Source: Candidatus Dormiibacterota bacterium
GTDB lineage: Bacteria; Chloroflexota; Dormibacteria; Aeolococcales; Aeolococcaceae
Assembly: GCA_963709585.1 (NCBI GenBank)
Contig: CAVPXI010000023.1
Coordinates: 197,310-261,309, forward strand
DNA: 64,000 nt
Reading direction: 5' to 3'
In this document: piece by piece, positions 26,353-43,400 of the stretch
Layout of the letters: every line of letters begins with the position of its first letter
Position numbering within the stretch: position 1 is the first letter of the stretch
Translations under genes and position numbers: made by a program
The notes under the pieces: model-generated
What the model was told of the DNA's origin: nothing
What the model saw: the letters and a program-made list of their open reading frames with translations, nothing else
Databases searched by the model: none

Positions 26353-26375
26353 ATATCCACAAGGAGGCCGCGCCG

Positions 26376-27029
26376 ATCGCATTCCGAGAGCTCAGGGTCA
26401 ACGACCAGATTCGCATCCCCACGGTCCGGCTGTTTGACGACACCACCGGCGAACAGCTGGGAATCGTGACCATCGAACGAGCGCGAGAGCTCGCCGCCCA
26501 ACGTGAACTCGACCTGGTCGAGGTGGCACCTCAGGCCCAACCGCCGGTGTGCCGCCTCATGGACTACGGGCGCTTCAAGTTCGAAGCCCTGAAGAAGGAG
26601 AAGGAAAGCCGCAAAGAGCACAACACCATCAACGTCAAGGAGATGAAGCTGCGTCCGAAGATCTCGGAGCACGACTTCCAGACCAAGTTCGGGTCGGTTC
26701 GTCACTTCCTCCACGACGGCGACAAGGTCAAGCTCACGATCATGTTTCGTGGGCGCGAGATGGTGCACCAGGAGTACGGGCGCAAGCTGCTCGACCGGAT
26801 GGCCGAGGAACTGAAAGAGGTGGCGATCATCGAGCGGACACCGCTGGTGGAGGGCCGCAACATGATCATGATCATGAGCCCGCTCAACAAGAAGCACGCC
26901 AAGGGCGACCAGCACACCAATGACCGGCGTCCGACACAGGAAATCGAGGTGAGCGTCACCGTTCCGGAGGAAGAGCAGGTCGCCGAATCAGGGAGTAACA
27001 ACGTCGATGCCAAAGATACGAACCCATAA
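26376..27029 (+). CDS. infC: Translation initiation factor IF-3 (ATC start)
   Basis: AAGGAGG (26361-26367) 8 nt before in-frame ATC 26376; ELRVNDQIR..VRL, LDLVEV, DYGRFKFE, KEMKLRPKI. Confidence 0.95.
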   Translation: MAFRELRVNDQIRIPTVRLFDDTTGEQLGIVTIERARELAAQRELDLVEVAPQAQPPVCRLMDYGRFKFEALKKEKESRKEHNTINVKEMKLRPKISEHDFQTKFGSVRHFLHDGDKVKLTIMFRGREMVHQEYGRKLLDRMAEELKEVAIIERTPLVEGRNMIMIMSPLNKKHAKGDQHTNDRRPTQEIEVSVTVPEEEQVAESGSNNVDAKDTNP

Positions 27030-39823: not shown

Positions 39824-40294
39824 ATGAACACCGACGACGTCTCCGGCATCGCCTGTCTGCTGCGCCCGTCCTTCGCCCATCTGGGCATCGACCTCGTCGA
39901 CGTGCAGTGGTCGGGCCACGGGCGCGGCGCGGTGCTGCGCCTGGTCATCGACCGCGCCGGCGGCGGCGTCACCCTCGACGACTGCGAGCGCGCATCGAAC
40001 ACGGCCTCGGCCGTGCTCGACGTCAACGATCCGATCGACCACCCCTACCGCCTCGAGGTCAGCTCACCCGGCGCGGAGCGGCCGATTCGCCGCGCCGATG
40101 AGTGGACCGCCGCGGTGGGTCGTCGCGTCAACGCCCGGCTGCGCGACGGTGACTCGGAATTGGTGCTCGAAGGCAAGCTCGTCTCGGTCTCGGGAGGCGA
40201 GGCAGAGATCGAGGTTCGCGATCGCAGGACGACCCGGGCCGTCGCGTTCGCGATCGACGCGGTGGTGGCGGCCAGGATCGTCGTCGCCATCTGA
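39824..40294 (+). CDS. rimP: Ribosome maturation factor RimP
   Basis: LRLVIDR..GVTLDDC, YRLEVSSPGAERP. Confidence 0.93.
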   Translation: MNTDDVSGIACLLRPSFAHLGIDLVDVQWSGHGRGAVLRLVIDRAGGGVTLDDCERASNTASAVLDVNDPIDHPYRLEVSSPGAERPIRRADEWTAAVGRRVNARLRDGDSELVLEGKLVSVSGGEAEIEVRDRRTTRAVAFAIDAVVAARIVVAI

Positions 40295-41313
40295 TGGCCG
40301 CTCCGGCTGTGACCCTGAGCGCGCTCCGTGACCTCGCGGCCGCGACCCCGCTCAGCGAGGCCGACATCACCAGCGCAGTGGAGCAGGGGGTCGCAACCGC
40401 GTACCGCCGCGTCGTCGAGGACGATCCCCACGTGCGCGCCCGGGTGAACCTCGAGACCGGGACGTTTGTCGTCTACCGCGTTGGCGAGGACGGCGCCGAG
40501 CAGTCACTCGAGGTTGATGTACCGGATTTCCCAAGGCAGGCGGCTGCGGCCGCGCGAACCGCGGTCGCCGAGCGCCTGGCCAGCGTCGAGCAGCGCCGGA
40601 TCCTCGGCGAGGGGTCGAGCCAGCGGGGCGTGCTCCGCGACGCGATCGTCGAGCGACGAATGGGAGCGATCTGGTACGTCGACGCCGCCGGAGTGCCGGG
40701 GATGCTGCCCCCCGAGGAACAGATCCCGGGTGAACGGCTCGCGATCAGGGATCACATCAAGGTGGTCATCGTCGAGGGCCGCCGCAAGGGACCCGACGCC
40801 GTTGTGGTGGTGTCTCGATCCCACCCGCAGCTCGTCCAGCGGCTCATGGAGCAGGAGGTGCCGGAGCTGCAGAGCGGCCAGGTCGTGATCCGAGCGATCG
40901 CCCGCGACCCCGGGCGCCGCACCAAGGTTGCGGTCGACGCACCCGAGGGCGACGTCGATCCCCAGGGGGCGTGCATCGGCCGGAACGGGGTGCGCCAGCG
41001 GGCGGTCACGTCCGAGCTCGGTGATGAGCAGGTGCAGATCGTGGCCTGGTCTGCCGACCCGGCAACGTTCGTCATGAACTCGCTGATCCCCGCCGCGACC
41101 CGGGGCGTCGAGCTCGACCTCGAGTCGCGGACTGCGCACATCTCGGTTGCGTCGGACCAGCTCTCGCTGGCAATCGGGCGGGGTGGCGAGAACGCCCGCC
41201 TCGCGGCGCGGCTGACCGGATGGCGCATCGACATCCGCGGAGACGAGCAGCAGGAGGACGAGCCGCAGAAAGACGCGCCTCGGGAAGACGAGCCGGGCGA
41301 CGGACTGACCTGA
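40294..41313 (+). CDS. nusA: Transcription termination factor NusA
   Basis: SRSHP, EVPE, ARDPGRRTKVAV, GACIG, SLAIGRGGENARLAARLTGWRIDI. Confidence 0.93.
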   Translation: MAAPAVTLSALRDLAAATPLSEADITSAVEQGVATAYRRVVEDDPHVRARVNLETGTFVVYRVGEDGAEQSLEVDVPDFPRQAAAAARTAVAERLASVEQRRILGEGSSQRGVLRDAIVERRMGAIWYVDAAGVPGMLPPEEQIPGERLAIRDHIKVVIVEGRRKGPDAVVVVSRSHPQLVQRLMEQEVPELQSGQVVIRAIARDPGRRTKVAVDAPEGDVDPQGACIGRNGVRQRAVTSELGDEQVQIVAWSADPATFVMNSLIPAATRGVELDLESRTAHISVASDQLSLAIGRGGENARLAARLTGWRIDIRGDEQQEDEPQKDAPREDEPGDGLT

Positions 41314-41604
41314 TTGACCGGTTCGACGCCGCTCCGGACGTGTGCCGGCTGCAGGAAGGTACGTCCCAAGTATGAGTTGATCCGGCTGGCAGTCCTGGTT
41401 TCCTCCGGTCGGGTTACTCTTGACCCGTCTGGCCGCTCTCCCGGTCGGGGCGCGTATCTCTGCCGGGAAACGGGTATCACCTGTCTGCGCCAGTCACGGC
41501 GGCACCGATCCCTGGCGCGCTCGCTGCGGGTCGGGGATGATGTAATCGACGAGCCCACCCTCGCCGCAGCGCTGGGGGAGCTTGTCACGGAGGAATCGAC
41601 ATAG
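41314..41604 (+). CDS. ylxR: YlxR/RnpM family RNA-binding protein
   Basis: [21 protein letters not shown]. Confidence 0.9.
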
Positions 41605-43400
41605 CAACGGTCAAGAAAGTCACCCTGCCGGCAGGTCTCACGGTCGCTGAGCTCGCCGATCGCCTCGAGGTGTCGGGTCCCCAGCTGATCAAGTACCTGA
41701 TGAGCAATGGCGTCATGGCCGCGCTCAACCAGACGGTCGACTTCGACACCGCCGCCCTTGCCGCCGACAACTTCGGGTTCGAGGCGGAATCCGAGGAATC
41801 GGTCGCGGAGCAGGCCAGGGGCACTTCGCCTCCCGGAGGCCGGCGCAAGCACCCCTTGATCGATCTCTCGAATGCCGCTCCGGGGACGCTGGTCACCCGG
41901 CCGCCGATCGTGGCGGTGCTCGGCCACGTCGACCATGGCAAGACATCGCTCCTCGATGCCATCCGCAAGACCAAGGTTGCCGCCGGCGAGGCGGGCGGAA
42001 TCACCCAGGTGATCAGCGCATACCAAGTCGAGCGCAACGGCCGCCTGATCACGTTCATCGACACCCCGGGCCATGAGGCGTTCACGGCGATGCGCGCCCG
42101 CGGAGCGGACGTGACCGACGTGGCGATTCTGGTCGTCGCCGCCGATGACGGGGTCATGCCGCAGACCGAGGAGGCCATCCAGCACATCCACGCCGCGGAT
42201 GTACCCATCGTCGTGGCGATGAACAAGATGGACAAGGAAGGTGTGAACCCCGATCGCGCGCTCCAGCAACTCGCCGAGCGCGGCGTCGTTGCCGAGCAGC
42301 CGTATGGCGGCGATGTGCCGGTCGTGAGGACGAGCGCCAGGACCGGGGAAGGCATCGACGATCTGCTGGAAAGCGTGCTGACCGTCTCTGACATCCTCGT
42401 CGAGCCGAAGGCAGATCCGAGCGGCCGTGCCGCGGGGACGGTCATCGACTCGTACCTGGAGCGCGGTCGCGGGGCTATTGCGACGCTGGTGGTCCAGAAC
42501 GGCACACTTCGGGTCGGCGACAACCTCGTCGCAGGCTCTGCATTCGGCAAGGTGCGCTCGCTGGTCGACGACACCGGCAAGCGCATCAAGGAAGCCGGGC
42601 CCAGCACGCCCGTCGTGGTCACCGGGCTCTCAGACGTCTTGATGGCCGGAGAGATCTTCGAGGTGGTCGAGACCGAGCGCGGCGCCCGGGTCAAGGCCGA
42701 GCAGCGCGGCTTCGACGAGAAGCAACGCCTGGCGCAGCCGGTGCGCCGGATCACGCTCGCCGACCTCGCGCAGAACGTCTCGGACGGCGAGATGAAGTCG
42801 CTCAACCTCGTCCTCAAGGCGGAAGCCAACGGCTCGCTCGAAGCCCTGCGCAGCCAGGTGGCCAAGATCGAAGACCCGACGGTCAAGATCAAGGTCGTCG
42901 GCGAAGGGGTCGGCGCTGTGAGTGAGTCCGACGTCAACCTGGCGGCGGTCACCGACGCCATCGTCATCGGGTTCAACGTCCGTCCCGACGATCACGCCCG
43001 CGCCGCCGCCGAGGAGCAGGGCGTCGATGTCCGCTTCTACGACGTCGTCTACCAGGTTACCGACGACATCGAGAAGGCGGTCAAGGGTCTGTATCAGCCG
43101 ACCATGATCGAGGTGACCCAGGGCCGCGCCGAGGTGCGCCGCGTCTACCAGGTCGACGGCAAGCCGGCGATCGCCGGTGCGCACGTGCTCGACGGCAGGA
43201 TCACGAGGAACGCGACGTGCCGCGTGCTGCGCGATTCCAAGGAGATCGCCCAGAGCCGCATCGAGGCGCTCAAGCGGTTCAAGGACGACGTCCGCGAGGT
43301 GACCCATGGGTACGACTGCGGCATCACCCTCGCCGACTTCAGCGATTTCCGCGAGGGCGACATCCTCGAAGCCTTCACGATGGAGCAGCAGAACGCATGA
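41601..43400 (+). CDS. infB: Translation initiation factor IF-2 (short form; probable ATA start)
   Basis: [28 protein letters not shown]. The IF2_N motif TVAELA..IKYLM begins upstream of the first canonical start; GGAGG 7 nt before in-frame ATA 41601. Confidence 0.95.

What the first reader, a model, noticed from the sequence alone, without database searches (positions are those of the whole stretch)
41585..41672. infB appears to start at ATA, so both IF2 and IF3 have non-canonical starts
Seen: after an in-frame stop at 41538 there is no ATG/GTG/TTG until 41670. The conserved IF2_N sequence ([21 protein letters not shown]) begins upstream of that. GGAGG (41589-41593) lies 7 nt before in-frame ATA 41601. 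That ATA overlaps the ylxR stop (ATAG), so an ATG-to-ATA read error would remove the ylxR stop. Established: IF3 represses initiation at AUU/AUC/AUA codons, and the IF2:IF3 balance governs leaderless translation. Inference: IF3 controls IF2 synthesis, a feedback loop I do not know to be described.
Basis: partly seen in the sequence, partly recalled or inferred. Interest (0 to 1): 0.7.

Follow-up and report, generated by a model that had tools for sequence, protein, structure and literature searches.

The report
IF2 gene starts at ATA codon
In this uncultured soil bacterium and most of its class, the gene for translation initiation factor IF2 begins with a rare ATA or ATC codon instead of ATG, which probably ties IF2 production to the state of the initiation machinery itself.

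Summary
infB can only encode its conserved N-terminus if it starts at ATA 41601. GGAGG lies 7 nt upstream and an in-frame TGA lies 21 codons upstream. The first canonical codon, GTG 41670, would cut the IF2_N domain.

Among 40 distinct junction sequences from the same genus, ATA is invariant, while the GTG is present in only 24. The 22 codons between them vary almost only at third positions, so they are translated.

The organism is a Candidatus Dormibacteria MAG. An ATA or ATC start with a Shine-Dalgarno is found in 77 of 98 distinct class-level junctions, covering four of the five families sampled. The other 21 have ATG: one nested f1 subclade and family f4. All 29 families sampled from other classes of the phylum have canonical options.

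infC starts at ATC 26376, and a genome scan finds no general use of ATH starts.

Control of IF2 synthesis by IF3 is plausible but untested. E. coli in-vitro data show AUA to be only weakly IF3-sensitive but strongly ppGpp-sensitive.

I found no paper describing this. A few NCBI records already annotate the ATA/ATC start automatically. I class it as a new member of a known kind.

The parts
40294..41313 (+). nusA, first gene of the nusA-ylxR-infB cluster
   Evidence: ORF of 339 aa. Pfam finds KH_5, NusA_N and KH_NusA_C. The synteny is kept across the class.
41314..41604 (+). ylxR (DUF448), TTG start; its stop TAG 41602-41604 overlaps the infB start as ATAG
   Evidence: ORF of 96 aa. Pfam YlxR matches residues 8-78. 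The stop ends at +4 relative to the ATA in all same-genus loci.
41538..41540 (+). TGA in the infB frame that closes the frame upstream
   Evidence: An upstream in-frame TGA with no canonical start before codon 1 is present in 40 of 40 distinct genus junctions.
41589..41593 (+). Shine-Dalgarno GGAGG, 7 nt upstream of the ATA, lying inside the 3' end of ylxR
   Evidence: GGAGG at 7 nt is present in 40 of 40 distinct genus junctions. The SD-spacer variants are listed. The region is unpaired in the centroid fold.
41601..41603 (+). ATA, proposed initiation codon of infB
   Evidence: Invariant in 40 of 40 junctions. The homologous codon is ATA or ATC in families f1, f2, f3 and f5. ATA is otherwise unused as an Ile codon in infB, nusA and infC (ATC 57, ATT 3, ATA 0).
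41601..43400 (+). infB coding sequence, 599 codons plus stop (a short IF2)
   Evidence: Pfam finds IF2_N, GTP_EFTU, EF-G_D2, IF-2 and GTP_EFTU_D2. Codons 2-23 vary at codon positions 1/2/3 in 0/1/11 of 22 sites each.
41670..41672 (+). GTG, first canonical codon in frame. Public gene callers pick it, but it is not the real start
   Evidence: It is GTG in only 24 of 40 genus junctions (GTC 14, GTT 1, GTA 1). No SD precedes it. It lies inside IF2_N. Public calls of 559-576 aa begin here or later.
26361..26367 (+). Shine-Dalgarno AAGGAGG of infC
26376..27029 (+). infC (IF3) with ATC start
   Evidence: IF3_C match at E 1.5e-35; start analysis. The homologous codon is non-canonical in 50 of 50 class loci (ATC 32, ATA 3, ATT 1, ACG 14).

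Best explanation
infB of this Candidatus Dormibacteria genome is translated from the non-canonical codon ATA at 41601. A strong Shine-Dalgarno (GGAGG, 7-nt spacer) positions the 30S subunit, and the ordinary initiator tRNA (anticodon CAU) reads AUA with a third-position mismatch. This gives a 599-residue IF2 whose IF2_N domain is complete. These points are shown by sequence and comparison. The ATA/ATC start is an old, selected trait of the class, present in four of the five families sampled. It is specific to the initiation-factor genes infB and infC rather than a general habit of the genome. What follows is inferred. A strong SD paired with a weak start codon is the architecture of genes whose translation depends on the state of the initiation machinery, so IF2 output is probably throttled by IF3 proofreading and/or by ppGpp and nutrient state. 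In this genus the ATAG overlap with the ylxR stop probably adds termination-reinitiation coupling.
For: Frame and domain: the frame is closed by TGA 41538, there is no canonical codon before GTG 41670, and IF2_N spans residues 10-61 from the ATA.

Genus level, 40 distinct junctions from 66 loci:
- ATA is present in 40 of 40 and GGAGG at 7 nt in 40 of 40. The GTG equivalent is present in only 24 of 40.
- Variable sites in codons 2-23 fall at codon positions 1/2/3 in 0/1/11 of 22 sites each. The 120 nt upstream instead follow the ylxR frame, at 6/8/19 of 40.

Class level, 98 distinct junctions:
- 77 have ATA or ATC preceded by an SD 4-10 nt upstream, in four stop geometries: ATAG overlap, ylxR stop 13 nt downstream, ylxR stop just before the SD, and about 60 nt of intergenic spacer.
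- The subclade that lost ATH (GTC at codon 1) gained ATG at codon 4. It is nested among ATA/ATC lineages.

Outside the class, 8 of 8 families inspected show ATG+SD, and 21 of 21 further families have a canonical codon upstream of the conserved segment.

Specificity: in a scan for GGAGG, 5-9 nt, then ATH, with no nearby canonical start, only infB, infC and one dubious ORF remain. A relaxed scan shows no ATH excess.

Other support:
- The initiator tRNA has a normal CAT anticodon.
- The initiation region is unusually unstructured (z +1.84; 198 of 200 shuffles fold at least as well).
- NCBI record P0025 equals the translation of L073 from its ATA, with M at residue 1.
- Precedents: IF3 represses the sigR GTC start and infC uses ATC in Streptomyces (PMC5472188 passages). 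AUA and AUU mRNAs are the ones most inhibited by ppGpp (PMC5499595 section 22).
Against: - There is no protein-level or ribosome-level evidence; the organisms are uncultured.
- In 10 ATH-type loci outside the window's genus, codon 4 is GTG and overlaps the ylxR stop as GTGA (L075, L077, L114-L121). Those lineages therefore have a canonical alternative.
- 9 loci have ATG at codon 4 and family f4 has ATG in 12 of 12, so ATH is not obligatory in the class.
- The SD lies inside ylxR, where it reads as Glu-Glu codons, so part of its conservation within the genus could come from ylxR.
- In E. coli extracts an AUA mRNA with an optimised initiation region reached 0.95 of the AUG level. It lost at most 20-25% at a 10-fold IF3 excess, whereas AUU lost more than 60% (PMC5499595 sections 20-21). 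The IF3 part of the inference may therefore be weak for ATA. AUC was not tested there.
- The genome-wide scans have low power: only 104 canonical starts pass the same GGAGG filter, and the relaxed filter excluded infB itself.
Confidence: 0.8

Rival explanations
1. Translation of infB in this genus depends mainly on termination-reinitiation. Ribosomes finishing ylxR at UAG 41602-41604 restart on the overlapping AUA, so the weak codon is tolerated because the ribosome is already in place. On this view it is not used as a regulatory sensor.
For: The ATAG overlap is present in all same-genus loci and in L072, L073, L115 and L123. Sister lineages show the classical ATGA overlap at codon 4. Re-initiation is helped by an upstream SD and by IF2 and lowered by excess IF3 in E. 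coli (PMC2268962 passages).
Against: ATH+SD is equally conserved where no overlap exists. In f2 the ylxR stop lies before the SD, in f3 there is about 60 nt of spacer, and in f5 the SD follows the stop directly. The optimal 7-nt SD spacing and the open structure also fit de novo initiation. The two modes are not exclusive.
Confidence: 0.3
2. The ATH start serves only to set a low, fixed level of IF2 relative to the co-transcribed nusA and ylxR, with no conditional control.
For: Non-canonical starts generally lower yield; examples are listed in PMC5499595 section 23. The genes sit in one tightly packed cluster with no promoter-like or convincing terminator-like site between them.
Against: A low set-point could be reached with a weak SD. 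Instead a strong, optimally spaced SD is kept together with the weak codon across four families, the same architecture as infC here and as sigR. GGAGG-type SDs are uncommon in this genome's filtered starts (104).
Confidence: 0.2
3. The real start is the first canonical codon GTG 41670, as public gene callers assume. The upstream homology would then be an untranslated relic, or GTG would give a second, shorter isoform.
For: All public protein calls at 87% identity or more begin at this GTG or later. Tandem IF2 isoforms are known in E. coli and B. subtilis (PMC1805508 passage).
Against: GTG is present in only 24 of 40 genus junctions; it is GTC, GTT or GTA in the rest. No SD precedes it and it cuts IF2_N. 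Codons 2-23 show third-position variation of 0/1/11.
Confidence: 0.03
4. The ATA is a sequencing or assembly error for ATG. Alternatively, IF2 is made as a YlxR-IF2 fusion by frameshifting, or another near-cognate codon (ATC 41595, ACG 41607, CTG 41625) is the start.
For: ATA differs from ATG by one base. ylxR and infB overlap in different frames.
Against: ATA is present in 40 of 40 distinct junctions from many independent assemblies, and no difference is listed there in contigs of 4 studies. In f5 and in genus g7 the ylxR stop is in frame with, and directly precedes, the SD or ATC, which excludes a general fusion. ATC 41595 is 1 nt from the SD. The ACG and CTG positions vary synonymously among relatives.
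Confidence: 0.02

Closest known systems
infC (IF3) AUU/AUC/AUA start and translational autoregulation by IF3
   Same: It combines a non-canonical AUH start codon, a good Shine-Dalgarno, phylogenetic conservation and a translation initiation factor gene. infC of this very genome has ATC. The mechanism is described in passages of PMC5472188 and PMC2830850.
   Different: Here the gene is infB, so any IF3 effect would be cross-regulation (IF3 acting on IF2), not autoregulation. The codon in this genus is ATA, which in E. coli extracts was much less IF3-sensitive than AUU. The trait is confined to one class, whereas the infC trait is widespread.
Streptomyces sigR GTC start repressed by IF3 (PMC5472188)
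   Same: A strong conserved RBS is paired with a non-canonical start, the feature is clade-specific, gene callers misannotate it, and IF3 was shown to repress a gene other than infC.
   Different: The codon class differs (GTC) and the product is a sigma factor. That case is experimentally proven; this one is not.
Deinococcus dnaA (ATC) and rpsL (CTG) non-canonical starts found by N-terminal proteomics (PMC2830850)
   Same: These are clade-restricted non-canonical starts on core housekeeping genes, detected because the conserved N-terminus lies upstream of any canonical codon.
   Different: Different genes are involved; infB is not mentioned in that paper (0 occurrences of infB, IF-2 or IF2). 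That case has protein-level proof.
Overlapping stop/start translational coupling (ATGA type) and re-initiation (PMC2268962)
   Same: There is a four-base overlap of the upstream stop and the downstream start (ATAG here, ATGA in the sister subclade) with an SD inside the upstream gene.
   Different: The restart codon is non-canonical, and the ATH start persists in families with no overlap.
Tandem IF2 isoforms from in-frame internal starts in E. coli and B. subtilis
   Same: The same gene is involved, and a second in-frame candidate start (GTG 41670) lies downstream.
   Different: The internal GTG is not conserved (24 of 40) and has no SD, so no evidence for isoforms was found here.

Membership tests
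Bacterial IF2 (infB) | GTPase G domain plus the IF-2 domain and C-terminal beta-barrels | tested here: met
   GTP_EFTU 6.9e-40, IF-2 PF11987 4.5e-36, EF-G_D2 1.7e-25, GTP_EFTU_D2 9.1e-09.
Bacterial IF2 (infB) | IF2_N domain, and the nusA-ylxR-infB gene order | tested here: met
   IF2_N matches residues 10-61 over the full profile. nusA and ylxR lie directly upstream here and across the class.
Genes with an IF3-discriminated non-canonical (AUH) start, infC type | No canonical codon can encode the conserved N-terminus | tested here: met
   In-frame TGA 41538; first canonical codon at residue 24, inside IF2_N; the upstream codons are under coding selection.
Genes with an IF3-discriminated non-canonical (AUH) start, infC type | AUH codon at functional distance from a Shine-Dalgarno, conserved among relatives | tested here: met
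   GGAGG at 7 nt in 40 of 40 genus junctions. ATH+SD in 77 of 98 distinct class junctions.
Genes with an IF3-discriminated non-canonical (AUH) start, infC type | Translation repressed by IF3, and relieved by changing the start to AUG | not testable with these tools
   This needs reporters, toeprinting or IF3 titration. Published E. coli in-vitro data suggest only weak IF3 sensitivity for AUA.
Stop/start-overlap translational coupling | The upstream stop overlaps the downstream start | tested here: met
   ATAG at 41601-41604. The ylxR stop ends at +4 in all same-genus loci.
Stop/start-overlap translational coupling | The overlap accompanies the ATH start throughout the clade | tested here: not met
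   In f2 the stop lies before the SD, in f3 about 60 nt upstream, and in many f1 and f5 loci 13 nt downstream.
Tandem IF2 isoforms (internal in-frame start) | A conserved internal canonical start with its own SD | tested here: not met
   The GTG 41670 equivalent is present in 24 of 40 junctions, and no SD motif lies upstream.

The most novel reading that the evidence does not exclude
In Dormibacteria the synthesis of IF2 is wired to the state of the initiation apparatus through its AUH start. Free IF3, and/or ppGpp acting on IF2, throttles infB translation, which would give an IF3-to-IF2 (or starvation-to-IF2) homeostat that co-regulates infB with the AUH-started infC. Lineages that lost the AUH codon kept a handicapped initiation mode instead: ATG 15 nt or more from the SD in an ATGA overlap with ylxR, or ATG with little or no SD in family f4. 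This suggests that the selected trait is conditional initiation of infB rather than the codon itself.
Probability: 0.35. Interest if true: 0.75.

Novelty: new member of a known kind. Interest (0 to 1): 0.55.

Why it matters
IF2 is the factor that brings initiator tRNA to the ribosome. In the organisms studied so far its gene uses canonical starts, and only infC is the textbook initiation-factor gene with a non-canonical start.

A whole class of abundant, uncultured soil bacteria starts infB at AUA or AUC, beside an AUH- or ACG-started infC and a TTG-started infA. This points to a clade-specific way of balancing initiation factors, possibly linked to slow growth or dormancy.

There is also a practical consequence. 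In the window's genus, every one of the 18 listed public predictions at 87% identity or more that I examined is truncated by 23 or more residues and lacks part of IF2_N. Alignments, structure models and domain statistics for this clade are therefore biased.

The case also gives a natural series of variants (ATA, ATC, ATG at codon 4, and ATG without an SD) for testing how start-codon identity shapes factor stoichiometry.

Tried and rejected
- **Earlier notes of this scan:** nothing by place, words or sequence.
- **ATH starts as a genome-wide habit:** rejected. The strict scan leaves only infB, infC and one dubious ORF, and the relaxed scan shows no excess over control codons. The relaxed filter (GC3 at least 0.75 over the short upstream segment) also excluded infB itself, so its power is low.
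- **infA (IF1) also starting non-canonically:** rejected. A conserved TTG (GTG in two loci) starts a roughly 35-residue basic extension. It carries an SD at 4-12 nt in the 15 f1 loci, but no SD motif was found in the 15 f3 loci.
- **Extra N-terminal segment of about 70 aa in f3, f4 and f5 as a second IF2_N domain:** not supported. Pfam finds one IF2_N stretch and only sub-threshold HTH-like hits in the extension.
- **Polarity of the trait (is the f4 ATG ancestral or derived?):** unresolved. The tree finished only as a quick search, and the order of the five families is an open polytomy.
- **Own promoter or leaderless infB in f4:** I saw a -10-like hexamer by eye, but the consensus scan found no promoter-like site.
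- **Promoter or terminator inside the nusA-ylxR-infB cluster of the window:** 0 promoter-like sites, and 2 terminator-like sites against 1.3 expected.
- **Laid runs:** these are assembled contigs, not reads, so they give no transcript ends or expression level. The RNA-library contigs that bridge ylxR and infB (X15 record 11, X16 record 19) are only a weak hint of co-transcription.
- **A 2026 preprint on IF2 terminal extensions:** it holds none of the terms start codon, non-canonical, IF3, Chloroflex or Dormibacter.
- **Not checked:** the five other ATH candidates were not compared with Pfam.
Full report
**1. What is in the window**

The region carries three tightly packed genes: nusA (40294-41313), ylxR (41314-41604, TTG start) and infB.

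In the infB frame a TGA sits at 41538-41540, and no ATG, GTG or TTG follows until GTG 41670. GGAGG occupies 41589-41593. After a 7-nt spacer comes in-frame ATA 41601-41603, which overlaps the ylxR stop TAG 41602-41604 as ATAG.

Translated from the ATA, the protein has 599 residues. Pfam places IF2_N on residues 10-61 over the whole profile (1-53 of 53, E 5.1e-11). The usual G domain, IF-2 domain and barrels follow. A start at the GTG (residue 24) would remove the first part of IF2_N.

**2. It is not an error, and the upstream codons are translated**

Titles of related public contigs name Candidatus Dormibacterota/Dormibacteria MAGs.

From 66 same-genus loci I obtained 40 distinct 270-nt junction segments. 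Among these 40:
- Codon 1 is ATA in 40 of 40.
- GGAGG lies 7 nt upstream in 40 of 40.
- An in-frame TGA lies upstream with no canonical codon in between in 40 of 40.
- The GTG 41670 equivalent is GTG in only 24 (GTC 14, GTT 1, GTA 1), so it behaves as an ordinary valine codon.

In codons 2-23, sites with a minor allele count of at least 2 fall at codon positions 1/2/3 in 0/1/11 of 22 sites each. That is the signature of a translated frame. The 120 nt upstream of the ATA instead follow the ylxR frame, at 6/8/19 of 40.

Inside infB, nusA and infC the Ile codons are ATC 57, ATT 3 and ATA 0, so the ATA is not a routine Ile codon.

Contigs of four runs from four studies (two DNA, two RNA libraries) show no listed difference between 41584 and 41659. 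Forty differences are listed and 50 more were not shown.

The 110-nt region around the start folds less stably than shuffled versions: -31.8 against a mean of -38.3 kcal/mol, z +1.84, with 198 of 200 shuffles folding at least as well. The SD and ATA are unpaired in the centroid structure, as expected for a working initiation region.

**3. Distribution**

The genome collection treats the group as a class inside a large phylum. At phylum level I searched 401 genomes and 398 had an infB match.

After removing identical junctions, 98 distinct class-level junctions remain:

| Group | Start at the homologous position | Count |
|---|---|---|
| Window's genus | ATA + SD | 40 |
| Other loci of family f1 or near it | ATA + SD | 5 (L072, L073, L074, L115, L123) |
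| Other loci of family f1 or near it | ATC + SD | 12 (L075, L077, L113, L114, L116-L121, L124, L125) |
| Other loci of family f1 or near it | GTC at codon 1, ATG at codon 4 | 9 (L076, L078-L081, L083, L087, L088, L097) |
| Family f2 | ATC + GGAGG | 7 of 7 |
| Families f3 and f5 | ATA or ATC + SD | 13 of 13 |
| Family f4 | ATG | 12 of 12 |

Families f3 and f5 carry an extra N-terminal segment of about 70 residues. They again begin with ATA (5) or ATC (8) plus an SD, close behind an in-frame stop in 12 of 13. Their first canonical codon lies inside conserved sequence or far downstream. Family f4 mostly lacks an SD before its ATG. In total 77 of 98 junctions have ATH and 21 have ATG.

Outside the class, 8 of 8 families inspected by eye have ATG with an SD. 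A further 21 of 21 families have a canonical codon upstream of the conserved segment, one of them at a contig edge.

A quick maximum-likelihood tree of 49 IF2 cores recovers the class (support 100) and each family. It leaves the order of the families open, so I cannot say whether the f4 ATG is ancestral. It does place the ATG-at-codon-4 group inside f1, among ATA and ATC lineages, so that state is derived.

Loci from unpublished genomes are included in these counts: G027 (L024), G311 (L113) and G213 (L117). Removing them changes no conclusion.

**4. Geometry relative to ylxR**

- ATA-type loci have the ATAG overlap.
- Most ATC-type f1 loci end ylxR at a TGA formed with codon 4 (GTGA).
- The ATG-type has the classical ATGA overlap at codon 4.
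- In f2 the ylxR TGA directly precedes the SD.
- In f3 about 60 nt separate the two genes.
- In f5 either the SD follows the stop directly or the stop lies 13 nt inside infB.

The SD+ATH pair therefore survives changes of frame and context, which argues that it serves infB itself.

One caveat applies. Ten ATH-type loci outside the window's genus carry GTG at codon 4 in a GTGA overlap, and gene callers choose it. In those lineages a canonical alternative cannot be excluded. In the window's genus codon 4 is GTC or GTA, so no such alternative exists there.

**5. Specificity and the other factors**

infC of the window starts at ATC 26376, with AAGGAGG and an 8-nt spacer; the next canonical codon is 30 codons on. 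Across 50 class loci the homologous infC codon is ATC 32, ATA 3, ATT 1 and, in all 14 f3 loci, ACG.

infA uses a conserved TTG (GTG in two loci). It is preceded by an SD in the 15 f1 loci but not in the 15 f3 loci, and it encodes a basic extension of about 35 residues. None of the three factor genes therefore starts with ATG here.

A strict genome scan looked for GGAGG, then 5-9 nt, then ATH, with no canonical codon upstream in the open frame and none within 12 codons downstream. It leaves only infB, infC and one arginine-rich ORF that looks like a wrong frame. The same filter passes 104 canonical starts. A relaxed scan shows no excess of ATH over control codons, but its filter also dropped infB, so it is weak.

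The initiator tRNA has the ordinary CAT anticodon.

**6. Mechanism**

Shown by sequence and comparison: the start codon, its SD, its conservation and its specificity.

Inferred: what the weak codon does.
- IF3 is known to repress non-canonical starts. This underlies infC autoregulation and the control of Streptomyces sigR, which pairs a strong RBS with a GTC start (PMC5472188, passages).
- Excess IF3 also lowers re-initiation, less so when an SD is present (PMC2268962, passages).
- Against a simple IF3 loop for ATA: in E. coli extracts an AUA mRNA with an optimised initiation region reached 0.95 of the AUG level. It lost nothing in rich-medium extracts and 20-25% in minimal-medium extracts at a 10-fold IF3 excess, whereas AUU lost more than 60% (PMC5499595 sections 20-21).
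- In the same study AUA and AUU mRNAs were the most strongly inhibited by ppGpp and by nutrient limitation (section 22 and abstract).

I therefore rate conditional control by the state of the initiation machinery (IF3 and/or ppGpp) as the most likely function. Termination-reinitiation at ATAG probably contributes in this genus. A fixed low set-point is the plainest rival.

**7. Known or new**

Five full-text searches found no paper describing a non-canonical start of infB, nor any paper on start codons in Dormibacteria. The terms are listed, and one search returned 0 papers.

The closest published cases are infC, sigR (GTC), and Deinococcus dnaA (ATC) and rpsL (CTG) (PMC2830850 passages).

Public protein predictions split in two:
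- All 18 listed proteins at 87% identity or more, the window's genus, begin at the GTG equivalent or later (491-576 aa).
- Four NCBI records from other genera (P0023, P0025, P0044, P0101) begin M-A-T and then V, I or L. P0025 equals the translation of locus L073 from its ATA, apart from M at residue 1.

So an automatic pipeline has already placed the start on ATA or ATC in a few records, apparently without comment in the literature.

**8. Verdict**

This is a real and well-conserved feature: a new member of the known kind "gene with a conserved non-canonical start codon". It is notable because the gene is infB and because the trait spans most of a class. The proposed IF3-to-IF2 feedback is reasonable but unproven, and for ATA it may be weaker than a ppGpp or nutrient effect.

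Noticed in passing
L175-L188 (infC loci of family f3): In all 14 f3 loci the codon homologous to the ATC start of infC is ACG. AAGGAGG lies about 8 nt upstream and an in-frame TGA two codons upstream. The first canonical codon lies 16-43 codons downstream, inside the conserved N-terminus. infC there may start at ACG.
   Followed up: partly
G000:C7:458532-458834 (minus strand; loci L209, L243) and L242-L271: infA (IF1) carries a conserved Arg/Pro-rich N-terminal extension of about 35 residues that starts at TTG (GTG in two loci). The TTG has an SD 4-12 nt upstream in the 15 f1 loci, but no SD motif was found in the 15 f3 loci. Coding conservation continues upstream of the internal ATG that a short gene model would pick.
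   Followed up: partly
L139-L150 (infB loci of family f4): infB starts with ATG, mostly with no Shine-Dalgarno. Several loci have a -10-like hexamer (CATAAT) about 12 nt upstream, seen by eye, which hints at a very short leader. The consensus promoter scan of L143 found nothing.
   Followed up: partly
L126-L138, L139-L150: IF2 of families f3, f4 and f5 has an extra N-terminal segment of about 65-70 residues that the window's family lacks. Pfam gives only sub-threshold helix-turn-helix-like hits there, and a single IF2_N further in.
   Followed up: partly
window 41670 and public proteins P0003-P0020, P0022, P0024: Public gene predictions for this genus start IF2 at the GTG equivalent or at later ATG codons (491-576 aa). 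They are therefore truncated by at least 23 residues.
   Followed up: yes
L115 versus L122 (same genus g12): Two species of one genus differ in start type. One has ATA at codon 1 with GTG at codon 4. The other has GTC at codon 1 with ATG at codon 4 in an ATGA overlap. This looks like a recent start-codon switch.
   Followed up: partly
G000 whole genome: ARAGORN finds 49 tRNAs, including tRNA-SeC and three CAT-anticodon tRNAs, but no tRNA-Ile(GAT). This is probably because rRNA operon spacers are not assembled in this 89%-complete genome.
   Followed up: no
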